This document shows positions 19,501-37,500 of a stretch of DNA of 64,000 bases, in pieces (positions within the stretch are counted from its first letter, which is position 1; every line of letters begins with the position of its first letter). This stretch comes from Phyllobates terribilis. Its lineage: Eukaryota. The stretch spans positions 247,442,001 through 247,506,000 of the forward strand of contig NW_027362767.1 of the NCBI RefSeq assembly GCF_046119375.1, in the 5' to 3' direction. Position numbers: made by a program.

Positions 19501-22500
19501 CAAAGTGCAGAATGCACTGGTTCAGAAAACCCCGAAATAAGATGGGGTAACCCCAAAAAGAGGAGGCGCAGAGAGCCGGGGTCCTGAGCTGGATGCCGTG
19601 GTACTGGTAGGCAGAGGCGCTGACGGAGTGGGTGTCGCTCGACTCGAGGTGGGCACTGGTGGGACAGACAGAGTGTCCAGGCGAGAGTTGACAGACCGCA
19701 GGTAGGTCAGTATGGTTTCCTGTTGGGATCTCTGATGAGAAACCTCCTGGTACAGGTCAGCAAGCGAAGGAGCCTGGGGGCCACCGGGTTCCATGGCCCG
19801 TGCAAACTGTTACAGATCCGGGTGGTGGAACCTCTGTGCTGCGGTGCAAGTAGGGACCAGAGGGGCATAACTAGGTATCAACTCGGACTGACCAAGGTCG
19901 CACGGCGGCTCAATCGACTCCGTGAACCAGGGAAGGACCGAGCAGAGGGACCAGGTGCTACTCCGGACCAGTCCTTGTATGAGAGCAGGTGACTCCCACG
20001 GGACAGAAGGCAGGGACTGATCGGTACAGCAGAAGAGCACGGCAGGCAGGCTAACGGGTGATCCGGGTAGACGGACTGGCAGACTCCACGGGTAACTGGC
20101 AGGAGCCTCCAGGTAGGCTGACTGGTAGGCATGGCAGGTAACTGGTATGTTCTCCGGGTAGACAGGCAAGACTGGCCCATAGACAGACTGGTGGGTTTAG
20201 ACCGTAGGCAGACCATCGGGCTGGAGAGTGCACTTGCTGGTGGAGACAGATAGTCAGGCTGACGGACTGGACTAGTAGTCAGGCTGGTGGACTGGATTGG
20301 TAGTCAGGCTGGCGGACTGGACAGGTAGTCAGGCTGGCGGACTGGTAGTCAGGCTGGCGTACTGGACTGGTAGTCAGACTAGCAGCGGGACCTGAGGGCT
20401 GAAGCAGAGTTTAGAACACAAAGCTACAACCTTGCACGGGCACCTCTATTTTGGAGGAGGTGCCTTTTATATGAGAAGTCCTCCGGCCATTGGCCGGGGA
20501 CTCCTTAGATCGGCGCGCGCGGCCCCTTTAAGAGGGAGGGAGCGCAAGCGTGCCCTATGCACGGTGCCTGGGAAGCTGCGAGCGCCGGCAGCAGTAGCAG
20601 CAGGAGAGCCAGAAGACGCCGGGCGGGGATCGCGGCGGTAAGAGGGACGGCATCTCTGCCTGTCAGGGGGCAGAGACGCCGATACTACATACGACATCTC
20701 TGACAGAACTGATTCCTGACAGGAAAAACTGTTGCTCCCCTCTGGCCCAAACTCCTCCCCCTTTTTTAACTGGACCAATCAGCAACCGACTCCACTGGTC
20801 GCTGGGCAAACTTCTTCCTTCAACAATGAACTGCCATATTCACCCACTTATAACGTGCACTAAACTTCCTATACTCTAAACTCTGCCTTATCTTCTATAT
20901 ACTAGTAGGCCACCGCTGCCTATCAGCCCCAATATTCCTATCAATTCATAACTAAACACTAGGCAATATGCTATGCTTTCCCTATATACTATATATAAAT
21001 AACATTATACATTTCATTACACTACTGTCACAAGAAGACAAGAGACCCACAAACAACAAAAACTGTTTAGTAAGGGAGAGGAGCATGACAGCGTCTGTCA
21101 CCCCCTTACACCCACATCTGGGTGGACAATACATGGAGGGTGGCTACCGCTGGCCCCCGCATCTGGGTGGAGAATAGATGGAGCGTGGCTACTGCATGGC
21201 CCCATATCAGGGCGGAGAGTACATGGAAGGTGGCTGCCGCAGGCCCTCACATCTTGGCAGATGCCGCAGGCCCTCACACACATCTCGGGGGTGAATAGAT
21301 GGAGGGTGGCCGCCGCATGCCCCAATATCTGGGCAAACAATTCATGGAGATTGTCTGCCACTGGTCCCTATATCTGCGTGGAGGGTGGCCGCCGCTAGAC
21401 CCCACATCTGGGAGGAGAATACATGGAGGATGGCTGCCGCTGGAGCTCACATCTGGGAGAATACATGAAGGGTGGCTGCAGCTGGCCCCCACATTTGGCG
21501 GAGTTACATGGAGGATGGCTGCCGCTGGCCCCCACATCTGAGTGAAGAATACATGGAGGGTGGCTGCAGCTGGCCCTCACGTCTGGCGGAGAATACATGG
21601 AGGGTGGCCACCGCATGCCCCAATATCTGGGCAGAGATTACATGGAGGGTGGCTGCCACTGGAGCCCACATCTGAGGGGAGGATACATGGAGGGTGGCTG
21701 CCGCTGGAGCCCAAATCTGGGCGGAGAATACATGGAGGATGACTGCCCCTGTACCCCGCATCTGGGAGAATACATGGAGGATGGCTGCCACTGGCCCCCA
21801 CATCTGGGTGTAGAATACATGGAGGGTGACTGCCGCTGGCTTTCACATCTGGCGGAGAATACATGGAGGGTGGATGCCGCTGGCCCTCACATCTGGCGGA
21901 GGATACATGGAGGGTGGCTGCCCCTGGCCCCCACATCTGGGGGAGAATACATGGAGGGTGGATGCCGCTGGCCCCCACATCTGGGGAGAGAATACATGGA
22001 GGGTGGCTGCCGCTGGCCCTCACATCTGGGTGGTGAATACATGGAGGGTGGATGCCGCTGGCCCCCACACCTGGGGGGAGAATACATGGAGGGTGGATGC
22101 CGCTGGCCCCCCCATATCTGGTTGGAGAATACATGGGGGGTGGCTGCCGCTGGCCCCCACATCTGGTGGAGAATACATGGAGGGTGGATGCCGCTGGCCC
22201 CCACATCTGGGGGGAGAATACATGGAGGGTGGACGCCGCTGGCCCCCACATCTGGGGAGAGAATACATGGATGGTGGATGCCGCTGGCTCCCACATCTGG
22301 GGAGAGAATACATGGAGGGTGGCTGCTGCTGGCCCCCACATCTGGGTGCTGAATACATGGAGGGTGGATGCCGCTGGTCCCCACACCTGGGGGGAGAATA
22401 CATGGAGGGTAGCTGCCGCTGGCCCCCACATCTGAGTGGTGAATACATGGAGGGTGGATGCCGCTGGCCCCCACACCTGGGGAGAGAATACATGGAGGAT

Positions 22501-34500: not shown

Positions 34501-37500
34501 CCCCACATCTGGGTGGTGAATACATGTTGGATGGCTGCCGCTGGCCCCCACACCTGGGGGGAGAATACATGGAGGGTGGCTGCCGCTGGCCCCCACATCT
34601 GGGTGGTGAATACATGTTGGATGGCTGCCGCTGGCCCCCACGCCTGGGGGGAGAATACATGGAGGGTGGCTGCCGCTGGCCCCCACATCTGGGTGGTGAA
34701 TACATGTTGGATGGCTGCCGCTGGCCCCCACATCTGGGTGGTGAATACATGGAGGGTGGCTGCCACTGACCCCCACATCTGGGTGGTGAATACATGTTGG
34801 ATGGCTGCCGCTGGCCCCCACACCTGGGGGGAGAATACATGGAGGGTGGATGCCGCTGGCCCCCACATCTGGGTGGTGAATACATGTTGGATGGCAGCCG
34901 CTGGCCCCCACATCTGGGTGGTGAATACATGGAGGGTGGCTGCCGCTGGCCCCCACATCTGGGTGGTGAATACATGTTGGATGGCTGCCGCTGGCCCCCA
35001 CATCTGGGTGGTGAATACATGGAGGGTGGCTGCCGCTGGCCTTCACATCTGGGGGGAGAATACATGGAGGGTGGCTGCCGCTGGCCCCCACATCTGGGGG
35101 GAGAATACATGGAGGGTGGATGCAGCTGGCCCCCACATCTGGGTGGTGAATACATGGAGGGTGGCTGCCGCTGGCCCCCACATCTGGGTGGTGAATACAT
35201 GTTGGATGGCTGCCGCTGGCCCCCACATCTGGGTGGTGAATACATGGAGGGTGGCTGCCGCTGGCCTTCACATCTGGGGGGAGAATACATGGAGGGTGGC
35301 TGCCGCTGGCCCCCACATCTGGGGGGAGAATACATGGAGGGTGGATGCCGCTGGCCCCCACATCTGGGTGGTGAATACATGTTGGATGGCTGCCGCTGGC
35401 CTCCACATCTGGGTGGTGAATACATGGAGGGTGACTGCCGCTGGCCTTCACATCTGGGGGGAGAATACATGGAGGGTGGCTGCCGCTGGCCCCCACATCT
35501 GGGTGGTGAATACATGTTGGATGGCTGCCGCTGGCCCCCACATCTGGGTGGTGAATACATGGAGGGTGGCTGCCGCTGGCCCCCACATCTGGGTGGTGAA
35601 TACATGTTGGATGGCTGCCGCTGGCCTCCACATCTGGGTGGTGAATACATGGAGGGTGGCTGCCGCTGGCCTTCACATCTGGGGGGAGAATACATGGAGG
35701 GTGGCTGCCGCTGGCCCCCACATCTGGGTGGTGAATACACGGAGGATGGCGGCCGCTGGCCCCCACATCTGGGGGGAGAATACATGGAGGGTGGCTGCCA
35801 CTGGTCGTGCGTTTTCCCATCAAAAGTGATGACAACAGCACAGACCCCCATTCTGCGGAGGGTGAGGGCCTCTGGGGACACCCTTTTTAACCCTTCAATA
35901 GCTGGTCTTTATAGAGGGTGGAGCTGCACATTTTAGACCTTGCAGCAATGCCATAGAGCGGCGATCTGGTTGCAGGACACTGTTCCCAGGGGGCTGTAGT
36001 TTTGCAGTATTATCTGACCTGGGCACTGGCAGGGCTTGCTGGGAGTTGGTGTTTGGCACGTTGGGGGCTCATAGCCACAGACTATAGTAGAGGAGGGGTC
36101 ATCATCACCTAGACCGCATCATTAACACTTTCTCTTCATGCGACGCCATTTGTTTTAACCCATTTGTGTCCTTGTGCTAAAATCCTAAATAAACAAGTGT
36201 GAGCTGCGCACGTCCGACCTCCGGCCGGCAGAGGGCGCGCTGTACAGTGCGCGATGGTCCGCGCCATTGTCTGCGCTGTGGTGCAGGAGAGGAGGAGGCC
36301 TGGGGGCTGCGGGGAGGACCGGCTGTCCGGGGGAAGCGGAGCACTGCACGGGGATTAACGCTCAGCATTAGCCGGTGAGATGGGGCTGCAGCACACAGGG
36401 TGGCATAATGGCAGGATATGATTGGTGGCATGTTACGTGTGGTGGGCACTGAGGTTGGCACATGCTTGTTACATAAGGACAGGTGGCTATTCAGGGGGGC
36501 ACATGCATCCACCCCTCACCATGCCACATGTATGTGCCACCCTCAGTGCCCCCCTCGTGTGACATACTGCGTAATGAGGGGGTGGGGGCATGAGATGTCA
36601 GATGGGCACTGAGGGTGGCAAACAATGCCAGTGGTTACATAATGATAGGTGTATGCTGCATGAGATGGACACTAGGGGTGGCACGTACAGCCATCTCTCA
36701 CAATGTGTGTGCCACCCTAAATGCCCACACCTGTAATGTTACATACACAGAGTAGATTGCTTAAGTCCTGCAATGGATGGGCACAGAATGGCAAAAGGTG
36801 GATGTATGTGCCGCCCTCAGTGCCCATCTAATGTATAATGACTGGCCCATCTAATGTATAATGACTGGTGGACGTGGTAATATTGTATATGCTGCCCTCA
36901 GTGCCCATCTAATGTATAATGACTGGTGGACGTGGTAATATTGTATGTGCTGACCCTCAGTGCCCATCTAATGTATAATGACTGGTGGATGTGGTAATAT
37001 TGTATGTGCTGACCCTCAGTGCCCATCTAATGTATAATGACTGGTGGACGTGGTAATATTGTATGTGCCGCACTCAGTGCCCATCTAATGTATAATGACT
37101 GGTGGACGTGGTAATATTGTATGTGCTGACCCTCAGTGCCCATCTAATGTATAATGACTGGTGGATGTGGTAATATTGTATGTGCCGCCCTCAGTGCCCA
37201 TCTAATGTATAATGTCTGGTGGATGTGGTAATGTTGTATGTGCCGCCCTCGGTGCCAATCTCTCACAACTTATCACATAATGAGGGTTGGATGAAGTGGC
37301 AGGTAACATGAGAAGGGCACTATCCTTTTTCATGGTGAGTAGTGTTTTTGTGCCGCCCTCAGTGCCCATCTCATGTAACATATCGCCACACCCAGCTCTT
37401 ATGTGACGTTACATGAGATGGTCATTGGGGGTGGCACACAGATATGAGATAAAGGGCATTGTGGGTGGCACATACATAAGATGTCATATTAGTCACCCCA

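What the first reader, a model, noticed from the sequence alone, without database searches (positions are those of the whole stretch)
21110..36374. 14.7-kb, 45-bp GC-rich macrosatellite ending about 400 bp upstream of the CIZ1 CpG promoter
About 325 head-to-tail units run to 35803, and the CIZ1 CpG-rich promoter/exon 1 starts near 36200. Each unit has 1-2 CpGs, a CATG and strong strand-specific G/C runs. The promoter-proximal end is the most homogeneous part, which suggests recent growth there. A large homogenising array abutting the promoter of a nuclear-matrix/chromatin gene could act as a length-polymorphic regulatory element or heterochromatin seed. I do not recognise the repeat as a described family, but I cannot search databases. 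Function is inference only.
Basis: partly seen in the sequence, partly recalled or inferred. Interest (0 to 1): 0.65.

Follow-up and report, generated by a model that had tools for sequence, protein, structure and literature searches.

The report
Large 45-bp tandem array near CIZ1
A frog genome carries about 19 kb of a 45-base repeat, split in two by old mobile-element insertions, just upstream of the CIZ1 gene; it looks like an ordinary fast-turning-over repeat array with no sequence sign of a regulatory role.

Summary
The array is real. TRF finds a 45-bp unit in 321.4 copies at 21379-35804, plus 3.2 copies at 21111-254. Between the two blocks lies a 7.9-kb composite of mobile elements: a Tc1/mariner copy and a degraded Ty3/gypsy-like LTR retroelement. 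The array is therefore about 19 kb within a 27-kb span, and older than those insertions.

It is non-coding. It has no canonical G-quadruplex motifs, no CTCF-like sites and no single-strand structure. It grows by near-identical multi-unit tandem duplications.

CIZ1 is confirmed, with coding exons at 38.7-54.4 kb on the + strand. A 175-bp CpG cluster ending in a splice donor lies 396 bp past the array. It is a plausible non-coding exon 1, but this is untested.

The array fits the GC-rich, TGGG/AGGG-rich tandem arrays common in frog genomes. "Macrosatellite" is a misnomer, and a regulatory role has no support from the sequence. Genome-wide distribution, length polymorphism and chromatin state could not be checked. 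Interest is low.

The parts
8610..13175 (+). Left (distal) block of the 45-bp array. About 100 units, the oldest and most diverged part, with both ancestral CpGs largely decayed.
   Evidence: TRF 8686-12760 and 12763-13168. Degenerate first units are visible from about 8610. Mean pairwise unit identity is 0.779. Column table.
13176..21105 (.). Composite insertion that splits the array. It holds unassigned DNA (13176-13638, 15205-15367, 20690-21105), a Tc1/mariner copy and an LTR retroelement.
   Evidence: No 45-bp periodicity here. The array phase is 39 at 13174 and 36 at 21111, so it continues across the gap with a 4-base overlap. The unassigned pieces have no other copy in the window.
13641..15202 (+). 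Tc1/mariner DNA transposon copy with terminal inverted repeats and TA flanks. The transposase reading frame is broken into at least two pieces.
   Evidence: Inverted match 13639-13676 / 15168-15204 at 89%. HTH_Tnp_Tc3_2 (2e-07) and DDE_3 (1.4e-12) lie on separate ORFs. Flanks.
15368..20689 (-). Ty3/gypsy-like LTR retroelement (the virus-like stretch), degraded. It has TG..CA ends and a 5-bp target-site duplication. Described only.
   Evidence: LTRs 15368-16156 and 19808-20689. The same 5 bases flank both ends. Pfam RVT_1, RT_RNaseH_2/RT_RNaseH, Integrase_H2C2, rve and SH3_Tf2-1 occur in that order on the minus strand.
16207..19188 (-). pol gene of the retroelement (reverse transcriptase, RNase H, integrase), given as one broken gene. 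It has 1 in-frame stop and 2 frameshifts. The gag-side region upstream has 3 more stops in the RT frame and no recognisable gag or protease domain.
   Evidence: Pfam on each ORF as it stands. Frames and counts.
21106..21378 (+). Degenerate array units at the left edge of the right block.
   Evidence: TRF 21111-21254 at 77% matches. Block 21080-21718 has identity to reference 0.803.
21379..35804 (+). Right (CIZ1-side) block of the 45-bp array. 320 whole units, uninterrupted, homogenised and still duplicating.
   Evidence: TRF 321.4 copies, 86% matches. Mean pairwise identity 0.870. 252 of 320 units are exactly 45 bp.
30595..35071 (+). Most recent internal tandem duplication. 30595-32509 is repeated at 33157-35071 (offset 2562 bp, about 57 units).
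   Evidence: 2 mismatches in 1845 ungapped positions. Longest exact self-match 847 bp. Profile.
24050..26875 (+). Mid-array tandem duplication. 24050-25624 is repeated at 25301-26875 (offset 1251 bp, about 28 units).
   Evidence: 12 mismatches in 1575 positions. Lag-28 identity peak. Unit-type map.
35805..36199 (.). Non-repetitive spacer of about 395 bp between the array end and the CpG cluster.
   Evidence: Sequence. No copy elsewhere in the window.
36200..36374 (+). Short CpG cluster ending at a GT splice donor. Candidate non-coding exon 1 / promoter of CIZ1 (inferred, not shown).
   Evidence: GC 0.69, 19 CpG, o/e 0.84 in 36200-36399. GTGAG follows base 36374. The ATG exon has a pyrimidine tract plus AG acceptor 18 nt before the ATG, which implies an upstream exon.
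38706..54362 (+). CIZ1 coding region. ATG at 38724, first coding exon 38706-38863, last coding exon 53988-54362. Exons were located one by one.
   Evidence: Exon 52496-52726: 27 proteins at E<=0.001, 19 of 27 named cip1-interacting zinc finger protein, all named ones amphibian. tblastn of frog CIZ1 proteins gives 8-14 matches each, all between 38802 and 54362. zf-C2H2_jaz and the CIZ1-like zinc finger match exon 50457-50621.

Best explanation
This is a non-coding, GC-rich, minisatellite-type tandem array. It has a 45-bp unit, about 430 units and about 19 kb of repeat, and it lies in the intergenic DNA upstream of CIZ1 in a hyloid frog.

It began as one array. An insertion later split it, and that insertion was itself invaded by a Tc1/mariner copy and a Ty3/gypsy-like LTR retroelement. 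The cut-off distal block (8.6-13.2 kb) stopped being homogenised. It decayed, mainly at its two CpGs, which is the pattern expected of germline-methylated DNA. The larger CIZ1-side block (21.4-35.8 kb) kept turning over by unequal exchange or slippage. It fixed a derived unit in which one CpG became TpG. It is still growing by tandem duplication of blocks of 4-5, 28 and 57 units.

Shown here: the anatomy, the non-coding nature, the duplication structure and the CpG decay pattern. Inferred: the unequal-exchange mechanism, the methylation and the order of events.

The array most likely has no function of its own. It is a by-product of recombination or replication in a GC-rich, repeat-prone region. 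Towards CIZ1 it is at most a methylated spacer that ends about 0.4 kb before an unmethylated CpG cluster.
For: - Periodicity and extent. The same unit and strand occur in both blocks, and the phase is continuous across the gap (39 at 13174, 36 at 21111).
- The gap consists of mobile elements with their own target-site duplications.
- The LTR pair differs by 30 substitutions over about 711 ungapped columns, plus indels. The array is therefore older than an old insertion.
- Unit identity: left-left 0.779, right-right 0.870, left-right 0.806.
- CpG columns. Left block: C 69% / T 27% and G 55% / A 34%, and at the second CpG C 66% with G 57% / A 41%. Right block: 94% / 93% retained at one CpG, and G 47% / T 45% / C 7% at the position of the other.
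- Near-identical internal duplications: 2 mismatches in 1845 and 12 in 1575. A 4-5-unit higher-order pattern fills the last 1.3 kb.
- Non-coding: 58 of 320 right-block and 20 of 100 left-block units have lengths that shift the frame. Each frame has 32-82 stops in the right block. Codon-like periodicity is not significant (2108 of 20000 permutations reach it). No protein homologue for a + frame (0 of 30 candidates). For a minus frame there are only low-identity matches (72 hits at 13-51% identity). I read 7 of the 72 and none carries the 15-residue unit.
- No functional motif signal: 0 canonical G4 motifs, 0 of 7 CTCF-like matches in the array, single-strand fold z = +2.39, no Rfam or tRNA hit.
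- TGGG at 35-39 per kb and AGGG at 18 per kb, against about 10 per kb in the rest of the window. Passages of PMC10794172 report these tetramers as enriched in recombination-associated tandem arrays of frog subtelomeres. The same passages say 10.67% of Xenopus tropicalis chromosomes are tandem arrays, attributed to unequal crossing over.
Against: - Sequence alone cannot exclude a chromatin or regulatory effect.
- The right block keeps its one CpG in about 93% of units. This could mean youth (my reading) or protection from methylation.
- The homogeneity gradient and the 99.9% duplication on the CIZ1 side would also fit a directional process tied to the promoter.
- The phase continuity rests on degenerate edge units, so 'one array split by insertion' is consistent with the data but not proven.
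- ACAG, the third tetramer named in PMC10794172, is depleted here (1.3-2.2 per kb against 11.5 per kb).
- I could not test whether the unit is a dispersed family, whether the array varies in length, or whether the near-identical 1.3-2.6-kb duplications are assembly artefacts.
Confidence: 0.7

Rival explanations
1. One reading: the array is a length-polymorphic cis-regulatory element or heterochromatin seed that modulates the adjacent CIZ1 promoter.
For: - The array ends 396 bp before a CpG cluster that is a plausible CIZ1 exon 1.
- The array is CpG-poor (o/e 0.21-0.33) and shows CpG decay. It is therefore probably methylated right next to a probably unmethylated island.
- Promoter-proximal VNTRs with effects on expression are known in humans (INS VNTR, MAOA uVNTR; recalled, not checked here).
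Against: - No motif signal: 0 of 7 CTCF-like matches lie in the array, and the window holds fewer matches than shuffles do (7 against a mean of 16.4).
- 0 canonical G4 motifs and no strand structure.
- The distal part has decayed and accepted 7.9 kb of mobile DNA. This argues against constraint on sequence or continuity.
- The TSS is not established.
- Tandem arrays are very common in frog genomes, so adjacency to some promoter is expected by chance.
Confidence: 0.1
2. Polar, promoter-driven turnover. In a frog lacking PRDM9, meiotic breaks concentrate at promoter-like CpG islands. Breaks at the CIZ1 island would then start unequal exchange or conversion mainly at the CIZ1-side end. That end would grow and stay homogeneous while the far end ages. 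This concerns origin rather than function and is compatible with the best explanation.
For: - Gradient of unit identity: 0.779 (left block), 0.858, then 0.898 (CIZ1 side).
- The youngest duplication (2 mismatches in 1845) and a 4-5-unit higher-order pattern lie in the CIZ1-side third.
- PRDM9 was not found in amphibians (passages of PMC5519329, restated in PMC10794172).
- Mutationally active ends of some human minisatellites coincide with recombination hotspots (introduction passage of PMC2599865).
Against: - The gradient within the right block is small.
- A 99.2% duplication lies mid-array.
- The left block's divergence is explained just as well by its isolation after the insertion.
- Variants are amplified in blocks, so units are not independent observations.
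- Promoter status of the CpG cluster is unproven.
- PMC5519329 itself cautions that amphibian sampling was thin.
Confidence: 0.2
3. The unit belongs to a dispersed satellite family or to the internal repeat of a mobile element, and this locus is one of many.
For: - Frog tandem arrays often derive from parts of mobile elements.
- A 45-bp variant of a satellite shared between hyloid frogs (PboSat12-91) is reported in Physalaemus (passage of PMC12191414). Its sequence is not in the main texts I could read.
Against: - Within the 64-kb window the unit occurs only in the two blocks. Of 424 blastn matches, 26 lie outside them, and all 26 are exact 10-12-mers at E >= 0.39.
- No terminal inverted repeats or LTRs flank the array.
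- The neighbouring 58-bp repeat is unrelated (45 and 114 of 300 shuffles score as well).
- No paper in the library prints a conserved 17-mer of the unit, searched in one orientation only.
Confidence: 0.25
4. The array encodes a repetitive protein. The 45-bp unit equals 15 codons and gives ORFs of up to 606 residues.
For: All six frames of the commonest unit lack stops, so long ORFs appear. In the right block, columns in one codon phase are twice as variable (0.123 against 0.059 and 0.059).
Against: - The periodicity is not significant (2108 of 20000 permutations) and is absent in the left block.
- 58 of 320 units shift the frame, and each frame has 32-82 stops.
- No homologue.
- Only compositional matches (7 of 72 hits inspected).
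Confidence: 0.01
5. Part of the array's length, especially the 99-100% identical 1.3-2.6-kb internal duplications, is an assembly artefact.
For: An exact self-match of 847 bp, and 2 mismatches in 1845 positions at an offset of 2562 bp, are the kind of structure assemblers can create or collapse.
Against: The copies are in tandem register, they differ by a few substitutions and a small indel zone, and they sit in an array with graded divergence. No N or other gap mark is present. This cannot be tested without reads.
Confidence: 0.1

Closest known systems
Recombination-associated GC-rich tandem arrays (minisatellite-unit satellites) of frog chromosomes, as described for Xenopus tropicalis and other frogs (PMC10794172; passages read)
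   Same: - Unit of tens of bp and arrays of many kb.
- Enriched in TGGG and AGGG.
- GC-rich setting.
- Internal structure of the kind expected from unequal crossing over.
- Neighbourhood of Ty3-type LTR elements.
   Different: - Chromosomal position (subtelomeric or not) is unknown for this window.
- ACAG is depleted rather than enriched.
- No mobile-element origin could be shown.
- The unit sequence itself was not matched to any described family.
Human GC-rich hypervariable minisatellites (MS32, CEB1 type; properties partly recalled, partly from a passage of PMC2599865)
   Same: - Unit of 10-100 bp, GC-rich with strand bias, and interspersed variant units.
- A possible polarity with one more active end next to a candidate recombination-prone site.
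   Different: - At 14-19 kb this array is at or above the upper end of such loci.
- Polymorphism and germline instability are untested.
- The frog lineage reportedly lacks PRDM9, so any hotspot would be of the promoter type.
Promoter-proximal regulatory VNTRs such as the INS VNTR (recalled)
   Same: A tandem array of short GC-rich units a few hundred bp upstream of a gene's presumed start.
   Different: No evidence here for a length-expression relation. The TSS is not mapped. The array is many times longer and is interrupted by mobile elements.
Macrosatellites D4Z4 / DXZ4 (recalled)
   Same: Total array size of tens of kb.
   Different: - The unit is 45 bp, not kilobases.
- Units are not CpG islands (o/e 0.21-0.33).
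- No CTCF-like motif in the array.

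Membership tests
Minisatellite-type (VNTR-class) GC-rich tandem array | Head-to-tail unit of 10-100 bp (definition recalled) | tested here: met
   Period 45 in all TRF rows covering both blocks. 252 of 320 right-block and 70 of 100 left-block units are exactly 45 bp.
Minisatellite-type (VNTR-class) GC-rich tandem array | Interspersed variant units and higher-order blocks produced by unequal exchange | tested here: met
   Nine common unit types occur in repeating strings. 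There are lag peaks at 2, 4 and 28 units, and duplications at offsets of 1251 and 2562 bp.
Minisatellite-type (VNTR-class) GC-rich tandem array | GC-rich with strand asymmetry | tested here: met
   GC 0.62 and 0.59; GC skew +0.17 and +0.16.
Minisatellite-type (VNTR-class) GC-rich tandem array | Non-coding | tested here: met
   Frame-shifting unit lengths in 58 of 320 and 20 of 100 units. 32-82 stops per frame. No homologues.
Minisatellite-type (VNTR-class) GC-rich tandem array | Length polymorphism between individuals | not testable with these tools
   Only one haplotype is in hand.
Frog subtelomeric recombination-associated tandem repeats (PMC10794172) | Enrichment of TGGG, AGGG and ACAG tetramers | tested here: inconclusive
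   TGGG 34.9-38.6 per kb and AGGG 17.6-17.9 per kb, against about 10 per kb in the rest of the window. ACAG is 1.3-2.2 per kb against 11.5 per kb. Two of three are met.
Frog subtelomeric recombination-associated tandem repeats (PMC10794172) | Location in the terminal, highly recombining tens of Mb of a chromosome | not testable with these tools
   The window's chromosomal position is unknown.
Macrosatellite (D4Z4 / DXZ4 kind) | Unit of roughly a kilobase or more (definition recalled) | tested here: not met
   The unit is 45 bp. The 1.25-kb and 2.56-kb duplications occur two to three times only and are not a regular period.
Macrosatellite (D4Z4 / DXZ4 kind) | CpG-island-like units, with CTCF sites in DXZ4 (recalled) | tested here: not met
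   CpG o/e is 0.21-0.33 across the array. Of 7 matches to a recalled CTCF-like IUPAC consensus (up to 2 mismatches), 0 lie in the array.
Described dispersed frog satellite family (e.g. PboSat12-91 and its 45-bp variant) | Sequence similarity to the family consensus | not testable with these tools
   The consensus sequences are not in the main texts read. Supplements are closed, and no eukaryotic repeat library or frog assembly is on hand.
Described dispersed frog satellite family (e.g. PboSat12-91 and its 45-bp variant) | Presence at many loci | tested here: inconclusive
   Inside the 64-kb window the unit is confined to the two blocks. The rest of the genome was not available.
Promoter-proximal regulatory VNTR | Lies within about 1 kb of a mapped transcription start | tested here: inconclusive
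   The array ends 396 bp from a CpG cluster that has a downstream splice donor. The ATG exon has an acceptor, which implies an upstream exon. No transcript data.
Promoter-proximal regulatory VNTR | Allele length associated with expression | not testable with these tools
   No population or expression data.

The most novel reading that the evidence does not exclude
The array is a promoter-anchored polar minisatellite. In a PRDM9-less frog, meiotic breaks at the CIZ1 CpG island repeatedly seed unequal exchange at the adjacent array end. The array then grows and homogenises towards the promoter, while its far end ages, loses CpGs and collects mobile elements. The moving boundary between methylated array and unmethylated island makes CIZ1 promoter activity depend on array length. 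This would give a natural, sequence-readable record of promoter-type hotspot activity in an amphibian.
Probability: 0.1. Interest if true: 0.5.

Novelty: new member of a known kind. Interest (0 to 1): 0.2.

Why it matters
As it stands, little. It is one more large GC-rich tandem array in a frog genome, a class reported to cover about a tenth of Xenopus tropicalis chromosomes.

It is useful as a clean worked example. An old mobile-element insertion split one array. The isolated part decayed, while the larger part kept homogenising and duplicating. This dates the array as older than the LTR insertion and shows turnover continuing up to very recent events.

If population long-read data showed polarity towards the CpG cluster, the locus could serve to study promoter-type recombination hotspots in amphibians. 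If array length tracked CIZ1 expression, it would be a natural regulatory VNTR. Neither is indicated by the sequence alone.

Tried and rejected
- Coding repeat protein: rejected.
- CTCF-site array of the DXZ4 kind: a recalled IUPAC consensus gives 7 matches in the window, none in the array, and fewer than in shuffles.
- G-quadruplex array: 0 motifs with loops up to 12. Only long-loop (up to 30) patterns occur, on the + strand.
- Single-strand hairpin or cruciform potential: a 180-nt sample folds worse than all 200 shuffles (z = +2.39).
- Structured RNA or tRNA origin: no Rfam hit at gathering score and no tRNA.
- Relation to the neighbouring 58-bp repeat (36845-37261): local alignment scores are within the shuffle range.
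- Array sitting inside a larger mobile element: no inverted or direct terminal repeats between the flanks 7600-8620 and 35796-36900, only 8-12-mers.
- Host gene upstream of the array: 10 ORFs from 1-8600 and 60-63.5 kb were scanned in Pfam. Only Tc1/mariner domains were found in 1-8600.
- The bacterial promoter/terminator scan is not informative for a vertebrate locus and was ignored.
- Literature: no paper on satellite DNA of dendrobatid frogs describing such a unit (3 papers listed). The satellitome + frog listing was read as a listing only. One paper for '45 bp' + satDNA + Anura. Nothing on a tandem repeat at a CIZ1 promoter; the listed papers concern CIZ1 and Xist repeats. No paper prints the 17-mer.
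- Not used: the bacterial/archaeal genome collection, which cannot hold a frog locus, and the third protein word-index search.

Full report
**1. Observation**

Tandem Repeats Finder reports a 45-bp period at 21379-35804 (321.4 copies, 86% matches, score 20294). It also reports 3.2 copies at 21111-21254.

The window has no N. A cyclic alignment to the commonest exact 45-mer of the array (window 23651-23695, present 32 times) splits 21080-35830 into 330 units. In the right block there are 1.09 CpG and 0.92 CATG per unit, GC is 0.62 and GC skew is +0.17.

TRF gives 91.5 and 9.2 copies there at 79% and 75% matches. Degenerate first units are visible from about 8610.

**2. Anatomy of the array**

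Mean pairwise identity between units:
- 0.779 within the left block (100 whole units).
- 0.870 within the right block (320 whole units).
- 0.806 between the blocks.

Within the right block, identity in blocks of 40 units rises from 0.858 (from 21410) to 0.898 (from 33975). One block dips to 0.839 (from 24994). The final 2-3 units are degenerate.

The right block is built from a few unit types arranged in repeating strings, with identity peaks at lags of 2, 4 and 28 units. The larger internal structures are:
- 30595-32509 recurs at 33157-35071 (offset 2562 bp), with 2 mismatches in 1845 ungapped positions.
- 24050-25624 recurs at 25301-26875 (offset 1251 bp), with 12 mismatches in 1575 positions.
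- The last 1.3 kb has a 4-5-unit higher-order pattern at 88-100% identity.

The array therefore grows by tandem duplication of multi-unit blocks. The youngest event lies in the CIZ1-side third, and another recent one lies mid-array.

**3. CpG history**

The left block's consensus has two CpGs, and both are decayed in the way methylated CpGs decay. One site shows C 69% / T 27% followed by G 55% / A 34%. The other shows C 66% followed by G 57% / A 41%.

In the right block the first CpG is kept in about 93% of units. The position of the second is G 47% / T 45% / C 7%. This means a TpG derivative and a G variant have spread. I infer that the left block preserves the older unit and the right block a derived, recently homogenised one.

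CpG o/e over the array is 0.21-0.33 per kb bin.

**4. What separates the two blocks**

The segment 13176-21105 has no 45-bp period. It contains two mobile elements and unassigned DNA.

(i) A Tc1/mariner copy at 13641-15202.
- It has inverted ends (13639-13676 against 15168-15204, 89%) and TA flanks.
- Its transposase domains lie on two separate ORFs, so the gene is broken at least once.

(ii) A Ty3/gypsy-like LTR retroelement on the minus strand at 15368-20689. This is the window's virus-like stretch, and I only describe it.
- The LTRs are 15368-16156 (789 bp) and 19808-20689 (882 bp).
- It has TG..CA ends, and the same 5 bases flank both sides.
- Pfam finds reverse transcriptase, RNase H, integrase zinc-binding, integrase core and a Tf2-type SH3 domain, in that order.
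- The pol gene is broken by 1 in-frame stop and 2 frameshifts.
- The gag-side region has 3 further stops in the reverse-transcriptase frame and no recognisable gag or protease domain.
- The internal region is only 3651 bp.
- The LTRs differ by 30 substitutions in about 711 ungapped columns (4.2%), plus 12 gap openings and a length difference of 93 bp.
- With neutral rates of about 0.8-2 x 10^-9 per site per year (recalled, not verified for this lineage), this would mean roughly 10-30 million years.

(iii) About 1 kb of unassigned DNA in three pieces, with no other copy in the window.

The array phase is 39 at the last clear left-block base (13174) and 36 at the first clear right-block base (21111). 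The period therefore continues across the gap with a 4-base overlap. The edge units are degenerate, so I call this consistent with one array split by an insertion, not proven. On that reading the array is older than the LTR insertion.

**5. Non-coding**

The commonest unit has no stop in any of the six frames, and 45 bp equals 15 codons. Long ORFs of up to 606 residues are therefore mechanical. The evidence against coding is:
- 58 of 320 right-block units and 20 of 100 left-block units have lengths that shift the frame.
- Every frame has 32-82 stops in the right block.
- One codon phase looks more variable in the right block (0.123 against 0.059 and 0.059). However, 2108 of 20000 column permutations reach that value, and the left block shows no such pattern.
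- A + frame ORF (34120-35829) found no homologue: 30 candidates, none at E <= 0.001, near-length band only.
- A minus-frame ORF (34061-35881), scored against 1.84 billion representatives, gave 72 hits at E <= 0.001 with 13-51% identity.
- I read 7 of those 72. All are unrelated proline/serine/glutamine-rich repeat proteins, and none has the 15-residue unit.

**6. Gene context**

I do not take this window for human. Exons were searched one at a time, and I built no joined exon model.
- The exon-bearing frame 52496-52726 found 27 proteins at E <= 0.001 among 64 candidates. Of these, 19 of 27 are named cip1-interacting zinc finger protein.
- tblastn of five frog CIZ1 proteins against the window gave 8-14 matches each, all on the + strand between 38802 and 54362.
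- Over all 27 proteins, the highest identities are to two dendrobatid frogs (0.83 and 0.82). For this count, rows outside 38000-55000 were dropped. The source is therefore a hyloid frog, not identical to any listed species.
- Pfam finds a JAZ-type and a CIZ1-like zinc finger on exon 50457-50621.
- The ATG is at 38724. It is preceded by a pyrimidine tract and an AG acceptor ending at 38705, so at least one non-coding exon should lie upstream.
- The only CpG-rich patch between the array and the ATG is 36200-36399 (GC 0.69, 19 CpG, o/e 0.84, with neighbouring bins at 0.09-0.38). It ends in a GTGAG donor after 36374.
- This patch lies 396 bp from the array end. It is a reasonable candidate for CIZ1 exon 1 and promoter, but there is no transcript evidence.
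- Downstream, an exon of prostaglandin E synthase 2 lies at about 63.18-63.39 kb (E 4.7e-35 to PDB entry 1z9h). This is the neighbourhood I recall for human CIZ1.
- Upstream of the array (1-8600) I found only Tc1/mariner remains.

**7. Tests of a built-in function**

- There are no canonical G-quadruplex motifs on either strand of either block with loops up to 12. Only long-loop patterns occur, on the + strand.
- A recalled CTCF-like consensus, allowing up to 2 mismatches, has 7 matches in the window against a mean of 16.4 in shuffles. None is in the array. One lies at 36225-36239, inside the CpG cluster.
- A 180-nt sample of the array folds worse as single-stranded DNA than all 200 shuffles.
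- There is no Rfam family and no tRNA anywhere in the window.
- The unit occurs nowhere else in the window. Of 424 matches, 26 lie outside the blocks, and all 26 are exact 10-12-mers.
- No terminal repeats flank the array, and the adjacent 58-bp repeat is unrelated.

**8. Comparison with what is known**

By the usual size classes (recalled), a 45-bp unit makes this a minisatellite-type array of unusually large total size, not a macrosatellite.

I read passages of PMC10794172. They say that:
- 10.67% of Xenopus tropicalis chromosomes are tandem arrays.
- Satellite and minisatellite arrays fill the highly recombining terminal regions.
- These arrays are enriched in TGGG, AGGG and ACAG.
- The authors attribute the arrays to unequal crossing over.
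- Some of the arrays derive from mobile elements.
- Amphibians lack prdm9.

Here TGGG (35-39 per kb) and AGGG (18 per kb) are enriched over the rest of the window (about 10 per kb), while ACAG is depleted.

Passages of PMC5519329 report that PRDM9 was not found in amphibians, with a caution about thin sampling. [quoted passage not shown]

A passage of PMC12191414 mentions a 45-bp variant of a satellite shared among hyloid frogs. Its sequence is not in the main texts I could search, and supplements are closed. Identity with the present unit therefore stays unchecked.

Literature searches found no description of this unit or of an array at a CIZ1 promoter. One search was read as a listing only, and searched one orientation only.

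**9. Explanation and rivals**

Best reading (0.7): a neutral, non-coding GC-rich tandem array maintained by unequal exchange. It was split by an old insertion, after which the isolated block decayed and the larger block kept homogenising and duplicating.

Not excluded:
- A regulatory or heterochromatin effect on CIZ1 (0.1).
- Polar turnover driven by a promoter-type hotspot (0.2, compatible with the best reading).
- Membership of a dispersed family (0.25, also compatible).
- Partial assembly artefact (0.1).

Coding is rejected (0.01).

**10. Not checked**

- Genome-wide distribution of the unit, repeat libraries and orthologous loci in other frogs.
- Supplementary tables holding frog satellite consensus sequences.
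- Transcripts, methylation, chromatin marks and population length variation.

**11. Verdict**

The regulatory "macrosatellite" idea has no support in the sequence. This is a new member of a known kind, of low interest.

Noticed in passing
window 36400-37400: A 58-bp tandem repeat (36845-37261, 7.1 copies, 95% matches) is preceded by scattered copies of a short motif in both orientations. It lies in the presumed first intron of CIZ1, just after the CpG cluster, and is unrelated to the 45-bp unit.
   Followed up: partly
window 54684-55405: A 31-bp tandem repeat of 23.3 copies at 99% matches starts about 320 bp after the last CIZ1 coding exon (53988-54362). It probably lies in or just after the 3' UTR and is very young or strongly homogenised.
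   Followed up: no
window 40000-40860: A CpG-rich patch (o/e 1.0-1.17 at GC 0.41-0.47) lies inside a CIZ1 intron. It is built of many short hairpins plus a 135-nt inverted repeat (40494-40628 / 40637-40771, 84% complementary, 8 nt apart). It has no Pfam, Rfam or tRNA hit. It may be a young foldback-type or MITE-like insertion.
   Followed up: partly
window 2808-3887 (minus strand): An uninterrupted 359-residue Tc1/mariner transposase ORF has Sleeping-Beauty-type HTH, HTH_Tnp_Tc3_2 and DDE_3 domains. Further Tc1-like fragments lie at 2-466 and 1755-2189.
   Followed up: partly
window 42790-46400 (plus strand): A non-LTR retrotransposon lies in a CIZ1 intron. It has an esterase-like ORF1 piece (weak GDSL match), an endonuclease (Exo_endo_phos_2) and a reverse transcriptase split over several ORFs. 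A related tail fragment on the minus strand lies at about 51497-51976.
   Followed up: partly
window 15805-15959 and 20251-20377: Both LTRs of the retroelement carry a 25-bp tandem repeat, with 6.5 and 5.3 copies respectively.
   Followed up: no
window 63179-63391 (plus strand): An exon of prostaglandin E synthase 2 (E 4.7e-35 to PDB 1z9h) lies downstream of CIZ1 on the same strand. The ORF at 60150-60560, which could be its first exon, has no PDB or Pfam match.
   Followed up: partly
window 52693-52827: One frog gene model (P0001) reads on past the CIZ1 exon ending near 52651 and still matches the window at 82% over 45 residues. This may be a conserved alternative 3' end rather than plain intron.
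   Followed up: no
window 41411-41425 and 59427-59441 (minus strand): These are a perfect and a one-mismatch match to the recalled CTCF-like consensus. The first lies in a CIZ1 intron and the second between CIZ1 and PTGES2.
   Followed up: no
window 59211-59238: A run of 28 C.
   Followed up: no
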